From: a virus
IMG/VR virus record: IMGVR_UViG_3300045988_120820
Span: 1 to 64,000 of that record
DNA length: 64,000 nt
Strand: one strand, 5' to 3'
In this document: piece by piece, positions 26,942-30,147 of the stretch
Layout of the letters: every line of letters starts with the position of its first letter
Numbering within the stretch: the stretch's first letter is position 1
Notes under the pieces: model-generated
Told to the model about the DNA's origin: nothing
Seen by the model: only the letters and a program-made list of their open reading frames with translations
Database searches by the model: none
Position numbers and translations under genes: made by a program

Positions 26942-28069
26942 ATGATAATAAACTTTAATCAAGAATTAAGTGAAGAATTTGGAAATGAAATAGTAGGTCA
27001 ATTATTAGATGTATATGCAAAAAATGAAGCAATATTAGATGCAAATTCAAGATTAAGATACAGAGAAGATTGGTTACCTTTATATTGCGATGAAATGACA
27101 TTTATGATAAATAGTCCAGGAGGTAGTTTATATTCGTTTATTCAAATATGGGATATTATAGATAAATTAAAGTCTCAAGGTGTTAAAATAAAAGCAGAAG
27201 TACAATCTCATGCTATGAGTGCAGGGTTTTTCCTATTTATGTTAGCTGACGAAAGAAGAATGAATAAATTAGGAACACTTCTTTATCATGAGATGCTTAT
27301 TGGAAATAGCATGAAATTATCTGACTGGAATTTAGAAACGCATAGAATGGATAAAATACAAAAGGCTTTAGATAAGTTGGTAACGGATAATACAAATATA
27401 ACACAAGATATGTTAGATAAATATAAAGGAAAAGATTGGTATATAGACTATGATGAAGCTTTAGAATTAGGGATAATAGAACCAGAATTAACAGAAGAAG
27501 AGCAATTGGCAAAAGCATTAGAAGATATGGATAAAGAAGAGATGACACAAAGTGAATTTGATGCTTTTGTTGAAGAAATGAAGGAATTGATTAATATCGT
27601 TCCAGATAAACCTACAGAAAAAGAAATACAAGATAAAATAAAAGAAATAGAGGGAGATACAGAACCAGATATGACATTAGGAGAAGCTGTTAAAGAGGTA
27701 TTAGGCGAAGACTTTAGATGCAATGGAGAAACTAAATGCGATGAGTTTGAAGATAGATGTTGTTATATGTGTGAGAACTTTGATAAATGTGATAAATTAT
27801 GTAAATATGCAGAAAAAGCAGATATATGTGAACATATGGAGAATAAATTAGATGAATTAGATAGTGAATGTGAAGATTGCACTTGTAAAGAAAATAAACA
27901 AGAAGATATAAAAGAATGTGAGGAACCAACTGAATGTGGGTTACATCGTGGAACTAATACTTGTTGTTATTTCTGTCCAGACTTCAATGAATGTACAGAC
28001 TTTAATAAATGTGTATACTCTAATGAATCTTTTGATTGTGAGTATTTAAAAGAACCTTCAAATGACTAA
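26942..28069 (+). CDS. ClpP-family serine protease with long acidic, duplicated Cys-rich C-terminal extension
   Basis: MINSPGGSLYS..IWD..SHAMSAGFFLF..LYHEM ClpP-like core; two C-terminal CCY(M/F)C..F(D/N)(K/E)C modules. Confidence 0.7.
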   Translation: MIINFNQELSEEFGNEIVGQLLDVYAKNEAILDANSRLRYREDWLPLYCDEMTFMINSPGGSLYSFIQIWDIIDKLKSQGVKIKAEVQSHAMSAGFFLFMLADERRMNKLGTLLYHEMLIGNSMKLSDWNLETHRMDKIQKALDKLVTDNTNITQDMLDKYKGKDWYIDYDEALELGIIEPELTEEEQLAKALEDMDKEEMTQSEFDAFVEEMKELINIVPDKPTEKEIQDKIKEIEGDTEPDMTLGEAVKEVLGEDFRCNGETKCDEFEDRCCYMCENFDKCDKLCKYAEKADICEHMENKLDELDSECEDCTCKENKQEDIKECEEPTECGLHRGTNTCCYFCPDFNECTDFNKCVYSNESFDCEYLKEPSND

Positions 28070-28135: not shown

Positions 28136-28936
28136 ATGAGCAAACATTGTATTCATTGTAATGGAATAGTTGAGAATGAAGAGCTAAGTTATTGTGAAAG
28201 TTGTTATAATAAATTAAGAACTAAAGGGATGTTTAGCGAAAGTAAAAAATACTTTTGTGGTGTTTGTGGAAGAGAACTAACGGAGGGGGATAATATAAAA
28301 AGGAAATTATGTAATAAACATTATCAACAAATTAAAAAGTATGGATTTACTTTAGAAGATAACAGAAGAACAGAAATAGATTTAAATGAATATGAGGAAT
28401 ATCCTAAACATTACGAAATGAAGTTATATGATGAGTTTCAAGAAGAGCTAGAGGATAGAGTTTTAATAGATAAAGATGATTATGAATTAATAAAAAATAT
28501 TAGATGGGATAAAAATACTTCTTGTGTCACAGCAAAAATAAATGGTAAGATTGTACCACTTCAAAATTATATATTGAATACAAACGAAAAAATAAACTTT
28601 GTGTCACAAGATATACTAGATTGTAGAAGAAATAATTTATATATTAAAAAGAAAAAAGATAAAAAGCATAAACATTATGATATATCTAAAAAGAATAAAG
28701 ATAAAATTATAATAGATTTTGCAGGAAGTAGTAAAACACAAGTAACAGGGAGTGCAATAATTGTATCTTATCCAGTAGGTGATAATAAATATGAAAGATT
28801 GTTAGTTGAATTTGGACAAAGTCAAGGTAATGGAAGTTTATATGACGAATATAAAGCTAATAAGGGGGTGGTTGATGATGTGTTAAGTAGAATAGACAAT
28901 CTACAAGCTTGTTTTATCCTACATACACATCTTTGA
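28136..28936 (+). CDS. beta-CASP/metallo-beta-lactamase nuclease, N-terminal part (zinc-ribbon and HNH-associated-like region plus MBL start), ends inside HxHxDH
   Basis: ..FILHTHL then TGA 28934-28936. Confidence 0.6.
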   Translation: MSKHCIHCNGIVENEELSYCESCYNKLRTKGMFSESKKYFCGVCGRELTEGDNIKRKLCNKHYQQIKKYGFTLEDNRRTEIDLNEYEEYPKHYEMKLYDEFQEELEDRVLIDKDDYELIKNIRWDKNTSCVTAKINGKIVPLQNYILNTNEKINFVSQDILDCRRNNLYIKKKKDKKHKHYDISKKNKDKIIIDFAGSSKTQVTGSAIIVSYPVGDNKYERLLVEFGQSQGNGSLYDEYKANKGVVDDVLSRIDNLQACFILHTHL

Positions 28937-30147
28937 AGCTAGACCATATTGGAAATCTCCCGTCTTTAATAAATAATCATATATCAGTACCTTTAATAAC
29001 TACTAGAGAAAATAGATTACTATTAGAACCGTTACTACTTGATGGGGCATACATAATAGAAAGAAATATGAAAGCATTGCAAAAACAGAAATATAAAGTA
29101 GAACCTATATATAATGAAAGTGATGTTTATCTATTAATGAATAATGTAATAGATAAAGAAATGCATAAAGTATATAAATTAAATGATAGAGTGTGTTATG
29201 AGTTTGTTAATTCTGGGCATATTTTAGGTGGCTGTCAATTGATTCTTTATATAAAAACTCTATCTGGAAATACTAAAAAAATCCATATAACATCTGATTT
29301 GGGTAGCAATTATAATAAAGCACCATTTGTATTAAAAAGGGATAATATACAATCTTCTAGTGTAAGTATAGTAGAAGGGACATATAATGATTTAAATAGA
29401 GGATTTAAATCTAAAAAACAAGTAGAAAAGGAAAGAATCAAATTAAAAGAAATAATTAAAAAAGAATTAAGTAAAAACAAAAGAATACTATTTGGGGCAT
29501 TTGCACAGTCAAGAACTCAAAACTTGATGATATATTTGTATGAATGTTTTAAAGACGACCCTAATTTTGATACAAAGATATATGTAGATGGGAAATTATG
29601 CCATTCTATCACTAATGCTTATTTAGAAATATTACAAGGTGAAGAAAAAGAATATTTTAGAGAAGTGTTGAATTGGAAAAATTTCATTTATGTAAAGGAT
29701 TATCAAAATAGCTTAAGTGTAGCAACTAATAATGAAAAGAAAATTGTTATCTCTGGTGGTGGTATGTATACTCAAGGGCGAATATTAAACCATTTAAAAA
29801 CAATGGTGGAGGATAAAGATTCTACTATTATAATGGTTGGGTATTGTGGAATAGGTACTATAGGTAGAGAACTTCAAAGAAAAGACAATAAAACTATAAA
29901 AATAGAAGGATTAGAATATAAGAAAAAATGCAAAATATATGAAATGAATACTTGGTCGTCTCATATAATGGCTAATGAAAATATAGATTTTATGTGTAAC
30001 ATAAATACACCGTTAATATTAATACATCATAGTGATAAAGACGGTAAATATAAATTTAGAGATATAACAGAAGATGAATTAAGAAATAAAGGTAATAGTG
30101 CTAAAATAATAGCAGTCGATGAGAACAATTCAGTATTTTTTATTTAA
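28909..30147 (+). CDS. beta-CASP/metallo-beta-lactamase nuclease, C-terminal part
   Basis: ..LDHIGN.. then SGHILGG, EGTYN, MVGYCGIGTIGREL, WSSH motifs typical of RNase J/CPSF-like beta-CASP enzymes. Confidence 0.65.
   Translation: MFYPTYTSLKLDHIGNLPSLINNHISVPLITTRENRLLLEPLLLDGAYIIERNMKALQKQKYKVEPIYNESDVYLLMNNVIDKEMHKVYKLNDRVCYEFVNSGHILGGCQLILYIKTLSGNTKKIHITSDLGSNYNKAPFVLKRDNIQSSSVSIVEGTYNDLNRGFKSKKQVEKERIKLKEIIKKELSKNKRILFGAFAQSRTQNLMIYLYECFKDDPNFDTKIYVDGKLCHSITNAYLEILQGEEKEYFREVLNWKNFIYVKDYQNSLSVATNNEKKIVISGGGMYTQGRILNHLKTMVEDKDSTIIMVGYCGIGTIGRELQRKDNKTIKIEGLEYKKKCKIYEMNTWSSHIMANENIDFMCNINTPLILIHHSDKDGKYKFRDITEDELRNKGNSAKIIAVDENNSVFFI

What the first reader, a model, noticed from the sequence alone, without database searches (positions are those of the whole stretch)
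28909..28947. beta-CASP nuclease interrupted inside HxHxDH by 8 nt with CUU-UGA...CUA geometry: decay or translational hop
The upstream ORF ends ...F-I-L-H-T-H-L-stop (CAT ACA CAT CTT TGA, stop at 28934-28936). The downstream frame reads ...L-K-L-D-H-I-G and goes on through all later beta-CASP motifs. Skipping exactly 8 nt (28934-28941, TGAAG-CTA) yields H-T-H-L-D-H-I-G, the canonical metallo-beta-lactamase HxHxDH motif, and also corrects the frame. The skipped segment is bounded by two Leu codons: CTT (28931-33, followed at once by a stop) and CTA (28939-41). This is the take-off and landing arrangement known from T4 gene 60 bypassing and from short tRNA hops over stop codons in E. coli reporters. 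Alternatively it is a plain 8-bp insertion that killed the gene.
Basis: partly seen in the sequence, partly recalled or inferred. Interest (0 to 1): 0.65.

Follow-up and report, generated by a model that had tools for sequence, protein, structure and literature searches.

The report
Conserved stop-codon gap splitting phage nuclease
A phage RNase-like nuclease gene is cut in the middle of its metal-binding motif by a short stretch that starts with a stop codon. This break is kept by selection in many related phages together with two upstream RNA signals. Ribosomes therefore probably hop over it, which would be the first natural case of a short 'stop-hop'.

Summary
ORF 28136-28936 ends CAT ACA CAT CTT TGA. 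The -1/+2 frame then reads ..LKLDHIG and carries the whole beta-CASP domain. Skipping 28934-28941 restores HTHLDH.

It is neither decay nor an assembly error. More than 25 independent assemblies carry a break at the same codon boundary. There are ten gap types of 1, 5, 6, 8, 9 and 11 nt, some in frame and some not. Each begins with TGA or TAA directly after the 'x' codon, and each ends before GAY CAY. No other lesion occurs in either ORF. Both halves show dN/dS of 0.02-0.27.

All 5-11-nt-gap lineages, and none of 40 intact homologs, carry two upstream signals. One is an RBS-strength Shine-Dalgarno-like AAGGRGGTGG. The other is a stable roughly 55-nt hairpin abutting the Leu codon.

Only a hop from CTT/CTG to the triplet before GAY gives HxHxDH in every variant. 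That triplet is CTN in 7 of the 9 multi-nucleotide gap types. This is my best explanation (about 0.5). The main rival is a split enzyme whose C-terminal fragment starts at the TTG in CTT-TGA. That rival fails for the in-frame variants.

A methylase gene in the same phages carries a conserved CCC-TAR +1 site.

The parts
28136..28933 (+). ORF1, 266 codons. Contains N-terminal zinc ribbons, a degenerate HNH-like domain and the first part of the metallo-beta-lactamase domain. Ends H-T-H-L.
   Evidence: N-fragment clusters P0073-P0079 all end HTHL or HCHA. dN/dS 0.08-0.27.
28862..28873 (+). Shine-Dalgarno-like element AAGGGGGTGGTT inside ORF1 (codons K-G-V-V). It ends 59 nt upstream of the take-off codon.
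   Evidence: Anti-SD duplex -16.7 kcal/mol. Present at the same position in every 5-11-nt-gap lineage (-16.7 to -18.0). Absent in 40 intact homologs, where the best value anywhere in the 100 nt upstream is -2.3 to -9.8. Such strong sites in the window are otherwise almost all at real RBSs.
28877..28931 (+). 5' stem-loop. Outer stem GATGTGT (28877-28883) pairs with ACACATC (28925-28931, which is the Thr and His codons plus the C of CTT). The inner stem (28887-28922) ends 8 nt upstream of the take-off codon.
   Evidence: Hairpin MFE is -14.2 (z -3.9) for L001, whose 55-nt hairpin sequence is identical to the window's (the window's own was deduplicated out), and -13.2 to -18.7 across interrupted lineages. 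Forty intact homologs have mean -5.2 and mean z +0.15 (Mann-Whitney p=5e-6). Within the superclade 90.8% of cells are paired against at most 55% in slid controls, with 2 compensatory pairs.
28931..28933 (+). Proposed take-off codon CTT (Leu), the 'x' of HxHxDH.
   Evidence: CTT in all 5-11-nt-gap types except one, which has CTG. CTN codons are only 20.5% of Leu codons in the window.
28934..28936 (+). [quoted passage not shown]
   Evidence: A stop (TGA or TAA) sits at this position in all ten gap types. TGA ends only 3 of 65 long ORFs in the window.
28934..28941 (+). 8-nt coding gap TGAAGCTA.
   Evidence: Homologous gaps in relatives: T, TGATA, TAACTA, TGACTC, TGAAACTA, TGAAACCA, TGATTCTT, TGAGAACTA, TGAAATCACTA.
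28939..28941 (+). Proposed landing codon CTA (Leu).
   Evidence: The triplet before GAY is CTA in five gap types, and CTT, CTC, CCA and ATA in one type each.
28942..30147 (+). ORF2, 401 codons plus TAA. Resumes at GAC (Asp of DH) and carries the rest of the MBL domain and the beta-CASP domain.
   Evidence: Pfam Beta-Casp. Intact at 398-401 codons in all interrupted loci where ORF2 is fully contained. dN/dS 0.02-0.17. PDB and Foldseek matches to CPSF73, aCPSF, TTHA0252 and Cas14.
28933..28935 (+). TTG in the ORF2 frame, overlapping the TGA (TTGA). This is the possible start of a separate C-terminal fragment (M-K-L-D-H..) under the rival reading.
   Evidence: Gene callers start P0004-P0008 here. 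The in-frame gap variants lack it.

Best explanation
The gene encodes a CPSF73/RNase J-type beta-CASP metallo-nuclease. Its reading frame is deliberately broken between the fourth and fifth residues of HxHxDH.

Proposed mechanism: the ribosome reaches CUU (Leu) with the stop codon UGA in the A site. Peptidyl-tRNA-Leu unpairs, the mRNA slips 8 nt, and the tRNA re-pairs at CUA. Decoding resumes at GAC, giving one 667-aa chain with a canonical HTHLDH. This is a short programmed translational bypass, a 'stop-hop'.

Two upstream elements exist only in interrupted alleles and are inferred to stimulate the hop. One is a very strong Shine-Dalgarno-like sequence. The other is a long hairpin whose inner stem ends 8 nt before the take-off codon, and whose outer 3' arm is the 7 nt running into that codon. 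As these nucleotides leave the ribosome, the outer stem could zip up and draw the mRNA forward. The SD-like element could anchor the 5' arm at the anti-SD, or hold back the next ribosome.

Ribosomes that fail to hop release a 266-aa truncated product, so the site probably keeps nuclease output low.

Shown: the anatomy, its conservation, selection on both halves, and the association of the two signals with the gap. Inferred: the hop itself, the roles of the two signals, and the regulatory purpose.
For: (1) The break is real and maintained. The same boundary is interrupted in the window, in IMG/VR genomes of 133-204 kb, and in ENA and Logan contigs from many samples. No other frameshift or stop occurs in either ORF. 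dN/dS is 0.08-0.27 for ORF1 and 0.02-0.17 for ORF2, with dS up to 0.6, among alleles that are all interrupted.

(2) Gap lengths of 5, 6, 8, 9 and 11 nt occur, both in frame and out of frame, on near-identical backgrounds. L001 (8 nt) and L049 (6 nt) differ by one synonymous change across the last 228 codons of ORF1. Frame-changing indels are seen only inside the gap. Skipping from the Leu codon to GAY gives HxHLDH in every case.

(3) A stop always follows the take-off codon, including in in-frame alleles, where most single mutations would make it a sense codon.

(4) Take-off is CTT or CTG. The landing triplet is CTA, CTT or CTC in 7 of the 9 multi-nucleotide gap types, and is identical to take-off (CTT/CTT) in L306. 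In this phage TTA makes up 68% of Leu codons and CTN 20.5%.

(5) The SD-like element and the 5' hairpin separate interrupted from intact homologs completely. The close intact relatives L086-L088 encode the same N-K-E-V-V with AT-rich codons. On the NJ tree the gap and both signals are gained or lost together at least three times.

(6) Precedent. T4 gene 60 has a stop after take-off and a 5' stem-loop 9 nt upstream, and pairing of exiting mRNA drives forward movement (bioRxiv 10.1101/2024.12.09.627546). A 5' stem-loop with a flanking SD is proposed for the short bypass in Streptomyces phage Hau3 (PMC10732093). Stop-hops work in synthetic constructs (PMC5009743).

(7) The same phage group has a second conserved shifty-stop site, CCC-TAA/TAG in a DNA methylase. 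Its downstream +1 frame has no start codon for 46 codons, yet is open and conserved (median dN/dS 0.21).
Against: No protein data exist, and natural short stop-hops have never been demonstrated (PMC5009743).

The SD-like element is of RBS strength. The hairpin would bring it within roughly 6-14 nt of the TTG in CTT-TGA. The region downstream is unstructured. This is what an internal initiation site looks like.

At take-off the outer stem's 3' arm lies inside the ribosome, and the SD-like element is 59 nt away. Its stimulatory role therefore needs a special model.

Two gap types have poorly matching landing triplets: ATA in TGATA and CCA in TGAAACCA.

No gap of 4, 7 or 10 nt has been seen. A pure hop model does not predict this absence (roughly p=0.06 with 7 types).

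The stems lie in different registers in different lineages, so RNAalifold finds no common structure.

Hop efficiency in E. coli reporters is low, about 1% by my recollection.
Confidence: 0.5

Rival explanations
1. Split enzyme. ORF1 terminates at TGA, and ORF2 is translated separately from the TTG that overlaps the stop (TTGA). Translation starts either by coupling or by de novo initiation. The hairpin bridges the strong upstream SD to this start, as in T4 genes 38 and 25, and by analogy with calicivirus TURBS re-initiation. The two polypeptides then assemble into an active nuclease.
For: Out-of-frame gaps (5, 8, 11 nt) all place a TTG in the ORF2 frame. The 1-nt group has an ATG there instead (C ATG CCT GAC). 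The SD-like element is as strong as real RBSs of this phage. The hairpin brings it close to the TTG. The downstream region is unstructured. Gap lengths 5, 8 and 11 differ by whole codons. This reading also explains why an SD cannot sit in the His-rich codons themselves.
Against: The in-frame alleles TAACTA, TGACTC and TGAGAACTA have no ATG, GTG or TTG in the ORF2 frame. L002 and L005 even lack the ATG at codon 43. These alleles arose at least three times and make up 7 of the 12 window-clade sequences. They keep an intact, selected ORF2, the SD-like element and the hairpin. The split would create chain termini plus 2-4 extra residues inside the metal-binding motif, at a strand-to-helix turn modelled with pLDDT about 95. 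This reading gives no reason for CTN at the triplet before GAY.
Confidence: 0.22
2. Everything in the gap is translated. Out-of-frame alleles use a +2 (or -1) shift of tRNA-Leu from CUU to UUG. In-frame alleles use stop-codon readthrough. The result is full-length proteins with 1-3 extra residues between HxHL and DH.
For: tRNA-Leu(UAG) could pair with UUG by two wobbles (inference). This reading would explain the absence of gaps of 4, 7 or 10 nt. UGA-C in L015 is a leaky context (own knowledge).
Against: It needs two different mechanisms. The number of inserted residues would vary between 1, 2 and 3 inside a motif whose spacing is invariant across the MBL superfamily (Callebaut et al. 2002, own knowledge) and in all 40 intact homologs here. 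If insertions were tolerated, in-frame stops should readily mutate to sense codons, yet none has. TAA is a poor readthrough codon.
Confidence: 0.1
3. Dead gene or sequencing artefact. An 8-bp insertion killed the nuclease, or the assembler introduced it.
For: A single sequence taken alone cannot exclude this. Some relatives are uninterrupted.
Against: The break appears in over 25 independent assemblies from different studies. Both ORFs are open, while the alternative frames carry 27-61 stops. dN/dS is far below 1 among interrupted alleles. Co-evolved upstream signals are present.
Confidence: 0.03

Closest known systems
Phage T4 gene 60 programmed translational bypassing
   Same: A phage gene whose two ORFs make one protein. 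[quoted passage not shown] Take-off and landing codons are read by the same tRNA. A 5' stem-loop ends 8-9 nt upstream of take-off. A Shine-Dalgarno-like element is involved. Relatives include both uninterrupted and interrupted alleles.
   Different: The gap is 5-11 nt, not 50. It varies in length and frame among close relatives. No take-off stem-loop can fit in the gap. No KKYK-type nascent-peptide signal is evident. The SD-like element is far upstream (56-59 nt) and very strong, not a mini-SD inside the gap. No adjacent homing endonuclease is conserved. The gene is a nuclease, not a topoisomerase.
Synthetic 'stop-hops' in E. coli reporters (Weiss et al. 1987; O'Connor et al. 1989)
   Same: [quoted passage not shown] The in-frame alleles here (CTT TAA CTA, CTG TGA CTC) have exactly this layout. 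By my recollection CUU-stop-CUA was one of the tested hops.
   Different: Those were low-level events without stimulators, in artificial constructs. The 2016 review states that no natural in-frame stop-hop is known (PMC5009743). Here the site is conserved, under selection and accompanied by dedicated signals.
[quoted passage not shown]
   Same: A short coding gap in a phage gene, with a proposed 5' stem-loop plus flanking Shine-Dalgarno stimulators (PMC10732093).
   Different: There the slow A-site codon is the rare UUA, not a stop. It involves a different gene and a high-GC host, and the sites are not inside a catalytic motif.
prfB (RF2) +1 programmed frameshift, CUU UGA C
   Same: The same P-site codon (CUU), the same stop (UGA) and the same next decoded codon (GAC, Asp), with an SD-like stimulator. 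The 1-nt allele of the L038 group (GCC T GAC) and the methylase site (CCC TAR) are of this +1 type.
   Different: In the window a +1 shift gives the wrong frame, because 8 nt must be skipped. The SD-like element is 59 nt upstream, not 3 nt. There is no link to release-factor autoregulation.
SD-to-start bridging hairpins (T4 genes 38 and 25) and TURBS termination-reinitiation
   Same: An rRNA-complementary element tens of nucleotides upstream of a stop/start overlap, brought close to it by a hairpin. This is the model for the rival reading.
   Different: Those systems always have a start codon in the right frame. The in-frame alleles here have none.

Membership tests
Programmed translational bypassing (hopping) | Two non-contiguous ORFs that together correspond to one uninterrupted protein in relatives | tested here: met
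   Intact homologs of 624-634 aa. The PHROG profile is contiguous across the junction. P0053 reads HTHLDHIG.
Programmed translational bypassing (hopping) | A slow-to-decode A-site codon (a stop) directly after the take-off codon | tested here: met
   TGA or TAA in all ten gap types.
Programmed translational bypassing (hopping) | The landing codon matches the take-off tRNA | tested here: inconclusive
   CTT/CTT in L306. CTT/CTA in five gap types. CTG/CTC in L015. However, ATA (TGATA) and CCA (TGAAACCA) offer only 2 of 3 pairs. The host's tRNA-Leu set is unknown.
Programmed translational bypassing (hopping) | [quoted passage not shown] | tested here: met
   Predicted hairpin with z -1.75 to -5.3 in interrupted lineages, against a mean of +0.15 in 40 intact homologs. 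Prediction only.
Programmed translational bypassing (hopping) | Nascent-peptide signal | not tested
   No KKYK-like motif is seen. The upstream residues are also conserved in intact homologs.
Programmed translational bypassing (hopping) | A single polypeptide lacking any residue encoded by the gap | not testable with these tools
   Needs mass spectrometry or tagged expression.
beta-CASP metallo-beta-lactamase nucleases (CPSF73 / RNase J type) | MBL motifs 1-4 (including HxHxDH), the beta-CASP domain and motifs A-C | tested here: met
   Pfam Beta-Casp. HTHLDH appears only after the skip. GHILG, SDLG, EGTY, SSH and HHSD are present. PDB sequence hits to CPSF73, aCPSF, TTHA0252 and Cas14. The AF2 model of an intact homolog has pLDDT 91 with Foldseek E=1e-30 to the same proteins.
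RF2-type +1 frameshift site | A +1 shift restores the frame, with an SD about 3 nt upstream | tested here: not met
   The +1 frame reads IFEARPYW.. and stops. The SD-like element is 59 nt upstream. The feature is met in form by the 1-nt L038 allele (without an SD) and by the methylase site.
Translationally coupled split gene | A start codon in the downstream frame at or near the stop, served by an SD | tested here: inconclusive
   Met for the 5-, 8- and 11-nt gaps (TTGA). Not met for the 6- and 9-nt in-frame gaps.

The most novel reading that the evidence does not exclude
A family of gut-phage beta-CASP nucleases is expressed through a natural, selected, short-distance stop-hop. tRNA-Leu leaves CUU at a UGA or UAA and re-pairs 5-11 nt downstream. 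The hop is driven by a new kind of stimulator: an RBS-strength SD-like anchor followed by a hairpin that zips up on the nucleotides leaving the ribosome. The same phages also use a CCC-UAR +1 shift inside the catalytic motif of a DNA methylase. Shifty-stop recoding placed in catalytic motifs would then be a recurrent way for these phages to throttle nucleic-acid enzymes.
Probability: 0.45. Interest if true: 0.9.

Novelty: new variant of a known kind. Interest (0 to 1): 0.8.

Why it matters
Translational bypassing has one fully proven natural phage example (T4 gene 60 and its homologs), plus yeast mitochondria and a Streptomyces phage candidate. Short 'stop-hops' have been known since 1987, but only from artificial constructs. 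The field's main review says no natural in-frame case is known.

This locus offers a natural allelic series. The gaps are 5, 6, 8, 9 and 11 nt, in frame and out of frame, with intact alleles as controls. The stimulatory elements are compact at about 100 nt. That makes the rules of take-off, landing and mRNA-driven movement directly testable with simple reporters.

The locus also warns annotators. 'Split' or 'pseudogene' calls in phage metagenomes can hide functional recoded genes.

If the rival is right, an MBL enzyme split inside its metal site, served by a long-range SD bridged by a hairpin, would itself be unusual.

Tried and rejected
- blastn of the gene against 50,697 GenBank phages found no match. 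tblastn gave only distant, unannotated gut phage contigs.
- Degenerate DNA pattern scans of viral and genome collections returned only loci already known, plus chance hits.
- No tRNA gene was found in the window. No Rfam family matched at the site. No promoter or terminator enrichment was seen.
- I looked for a 3' stimulatory structure and found none. The downstream region is less structured than in intact homologs.
Positional covariation could only be counted within the superclade.
- TGA reassignment (code 4 or 25) is rejected. The ORFs are long under code 11, and reassignment cannot repair a frame change.
- Transcriptional slippage is rejected because there is no homopolymer run.
- An intron or intein is rejected because 5-11 nt is too short.
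- A conserved neighbouring homing endonuclease, as with mobA and gene 60, was not found. Gene neighbours differ among interrupted loci.
- A start codon placed by the SD-like element at normal spacing was examined. It gives only mini-ORFs in varying frames, except in L007.
Full report
**1. The observation.**
The window is a 25.8% GC phage-like sequence with all long ORFs on the + strand. ORF 28136-28936 ends CAT ACA CAT CTT TGA (H-T-H-L-stop). The frame opened at 28909 reads ..T-S-L-K-L-D-H-I-G-N-L and runs to 30147. Deleting 28934-28941 (TGAAGCTA) joins CTT to GAC. This gives a 667-aa protein with HTHLDH at 263-268, followed by GHILG, SDLG, EGTY, SSH and HHSD. ORF2 carries the Pfam Beta-Casp domain. 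PHROG 36352 aligns ORF1 up to profile position 77 and ORF2 from position 79.

**2. What the protein is.**
Sequence search of the PDB with an intact homolog (P0001, 69% identical) hits CPSF73, archaeal aCPSF/FttA, Thermus TTHA0252, Integrator-11 and the type VII CRISPR Cas14 nuclease. An AlphaFold model of P0001 (pLDDT 91.3, pTM 0.88) matches the same proteins by Foldseek at E=1e-30. H224, H226, D228 and H229 sit at the end of strand 217-221 and the start of a short helix. The protein is therefore a beta-CASP metallo-nuclease, probably an RNase. Its N-terminal region of about 190 aa holds zinc ribbons and a degenerate HNH-like fold.

**3. Relatives.**
The protein search found intact homologs of 624-634 aa at 47-69% identity. 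The closest relatives, however, were called only as C-terminal ORFs of about 400 aa. I retrieved DNA from IMG/VR, JGI, ENA and Logan. It shows an interruption at exactly the same codon boundary in more than 25 independent assemblies. The gap between the 'x' codon and GAY CAY takes these forms:

| Gap | Length (nt) | Where found |
|---|---|---|
| TGAAGCTA | 8 | window, L001, L004, L308 |
| TGAAACTA | 8 | L006, L053, L309 |
| TGAAACCA | 8 | L012 |
| TGATTCTT | 8 | L306, L307 |
| TAACTA | 6, in frame | L002, L003, L005, L049-L052 |
| TGACTC after CTG | 6, in frame | L015 |
| TGATA | 5 | L007-L011, L013 |
| TGAGAACTA | 9, in frame | L014 |
| TGAAATCACTA | 11 | L024 group; 47% identical protein; 170-204 kb phages |
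| T after GCC | 1 | L038 group; 33% identical protein |

Every gap starts with a stop codon. About 40 other homologs are uninterrupted.

**4. Not decay, not an artefact.**
In every interrupted locus both ORFs are otherwise open wherever they are fully contained in the contig. The alternative frames of the window's ORFs carry 27-61 stops. Among 12 window-clade alleles, all interrupted, Nei-Gojobori dN/dS is 0.08-0.27 for ORF1 and 0.02-0.17 for ORF2, with dS up to 0.6. The 1-nt group behaves the same way, at 0.07-0.19 and 0.08-0.09. Six- and eight-nt gaps sit on near-identical backgrounds. L001 and L049 differ by one synonymous site in the last 228 codons of ORF1.

**5. Two signals that travel with the gap.**
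(a) All 5-11-nt-gap lineages carry AAGGRGGTGG in the codons for N-K-E/G-V-V, ending 56-59 nt before the Leu codon. Its anti-SD duplex energy is -16.7 to -18.0 kcal/mol. In intact homologs the best value anywhere in the 100 nt upstream is -2.3 to -9.8 (p=2e-7). The close intact relatives L086-L088 encode the same residues as AAT AAA GAA GTT/ATA GTx. In the window such strong sites otherwise mark real ribosome-binding sites. AAG, GAG/GGG and GTG are each 12-15% of their codon families.

(b) The 55 nt that end at the first base of the Leu codon fold into a hairpin with MFE -13.2 to -18.7 and z -1.75 to -5.3. Forty intact homologs have mean MFE -5.2 and mean z +0.15 (p=5e-6). The outer 3' arm is made of the x-His codons. 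Its partner changes with them:

| Lineage | 5' arm | 3' arm |
|---|---|---|
| window | GATGTGT | ACACATC |
| L024 | TGTGAATG | CATTCACA |
| L012 | TGTGAGT | ACTCACA |
| L015 | ATGTGT | GCACAT |

The inner stem ends 8 nt before the take-off codon. Registers differ between lineages, so RNAalifold finds no common fold. Within the superclade 90.8% of cells pair, against at most 55% in slid controls, with two compensatory pairs. On an NJ tree the gap and both signals appear or disappear together at least three times. No 3' structure accompanies the site. The 1-nt group has neither signal.

**6. Mechanism.**
A single rule fits all alleles. tRNA-Leu on CUU or CUG meets a stop, and decoding resumes at GAY after the gap. 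This gives the canonical HxHLDH each time.

The triplet before GAY is a CTN Leu codon in 7 of the 9 multi-nucleotide gap types, and is identical to take-off in L306. Yet 68% of Leu codons in this phage are TTA. Frame-changing indels are tolerated only inside the gap. In-frame alleles keep their stop.

The literature gives the parts. T4 gene 60 has a stop after take-off and a 5' stem-loop 9 nt upstream. Pairing of exiting mRNA acts as the forward driver, and slowing of the trailing ribosome lets that stem form. A 5' stem-loop plus flanking SD is proposed for the short Hau3 bypass. Stop-hops are shown only with synthetic constructs, and 'no occurrences are known' in nature.

I infer that the outer stem zips up on the 7 nt leaving the ribosome. 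I also infer that the SD-like element anchors the 5' arm or spaces the ribosomes. These steps are not shown.

**7. The main rival.**
The main rival is a split enzyme. CTT-TGA creates a TTG in the ORF2 frame for the 5-, 8- and 11-nt gaps. The hairpin would bring an RBS-grade SD close to it, and the downstream region is open. This explains the two signals very naturally.

It fails for the in-frame alleles, which have no start codon. L002 and L005 even lack the ATG at codon 43. Yet these alleles are frequent, arose several times, and keep the SD-like element, the hairpin and a selected ORF2. The split would also place chain ends inside the metal site.

A second rival combines a +2 shift with readthrough. 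It would insert 1-3 residues into a motif of invariant spacing, and it predicts that in-frame stops should be lost.

I put the hop at about 0.5, the split gene at about 0.2, the insertion model at about 0.1 and decay or artefact at about 0.03. The lack of 4-, 7- and 10-nt gaps, and the poor landing triplets ATA and CCA, count against a pure hop.

**8. A second site in the same phages.**
The N6_N4 DNA methylase gene reads ..DSIISQPP, CCT CCC TAA (51327-51335). It then continues in the +1 frame from AAT 51334 (NLTREDY..) to 51966.

The arrangement CCC-TAA or CCC-TAG followed by the +1 frame is conserved in 12 related genomes. The +1 frame has no start codon for 46 codons, yet is open with a median dN/dS of 0.21. 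CCC makes up 3.8% of Pro codons.

This looks like a +1 shift at a shifty stop, and it raises the prior that these phages use P-site re-pairing at stops. One point is unresolved. The +1 product lacks the aromatic residue expected after PP in the (D/S)PPY motif, and Pfam does not align across the junction.

**9. Novelty.**
I found no report of bypassing in beta-CASP or MBL genes. The site is a new variant of translational bypassing. It is short, variable in length, conserved, and equipped with its own stimulators. The evidence remains comparative until a junction peptide is seen.

Noticed in passing
window 51204-51966 (junction 51327-51336); L310-L321 around position 1201: The N6_N4 DNA methylase gene is broken after ..SQPP by CCC TAA and continues in the +1 frame. 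This is conserved (TAA or TAG) in 12 related phage genomes. The +1 frame has no start codon for 46 codons, but is open with a median dN/dS of 0.21. In the window the site lies in a perfect 8-bp inverted repeat, CCTCCCTA/TAGGGAGG. It is a likely +1 frameshift at a shifty stop. The +1 product lacks the Tyr/Phe expected in (D/S)PPY, and this is unresolved.
   Followed up: partly
L038, L039, L045, L047 (position 1500) versus L036, L037: A distant branch of the same nuclease family (33% identity) has a 1-nt insertion at the very same boundary: CAT GCC T GAC, so GCC TGA C. It is seen on at least 13 contigs, and both halves have dN/dS of 0.07-0.19. It lacks the SD-like element and the hairpin. It is either a +1 shift or a start at the ATG in C-ATG-CCT-GAC.
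   Followed up: partly
window 28136-28700: The N-terminal region of about 190 aa holds CxxC zinc ribbons and a segment (..LIDKDDYELIKNIRWDK..FVSQDILDCRRNNLYI) that resembles an HNH_3-type endonuclease fold without its catalytic His. The window clade has one more zinc ribbon than P0001-P0003. P0049 joins this N-terminus to a much more distant, uninterrupted nuclease body.
   Followed up: no
window 25696-26928: A 410-aa protein with three DUF4379 treble-clef zinc fingers lies two genes upstream of the nuclease gene. Its C-terminal part looks like a small endonuclease domain. It could be a free-standing homing endonuclease, but it is not a conserved neighbour of interrupted alleles.
   Followed up: no
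whole window: Stop codon use in 65 ORFs of at least 100 aa is TAA 49, TAG 13 and TGA 3, and one of the three TGAs is the recoding site. No tRNA genes are present. No strong SD-like sites occur on the minus strand.
   Followed up: partly
L009 positions 1-3337: In one relative the DNA polymerase III alpha gene next to the nuclease gene carries an intein (Pfam Intein_splicing, with a faint Hint hit). The otherwise similar L007 has none.
   Followed up: no
window 26942-28069: A ClpP-like protease with a long C-terminal extension rich in Cys and acidic residues lies directly upstream of the nuclease gene. The same neighbour is seen in L306 and L308.
   Followed up: no
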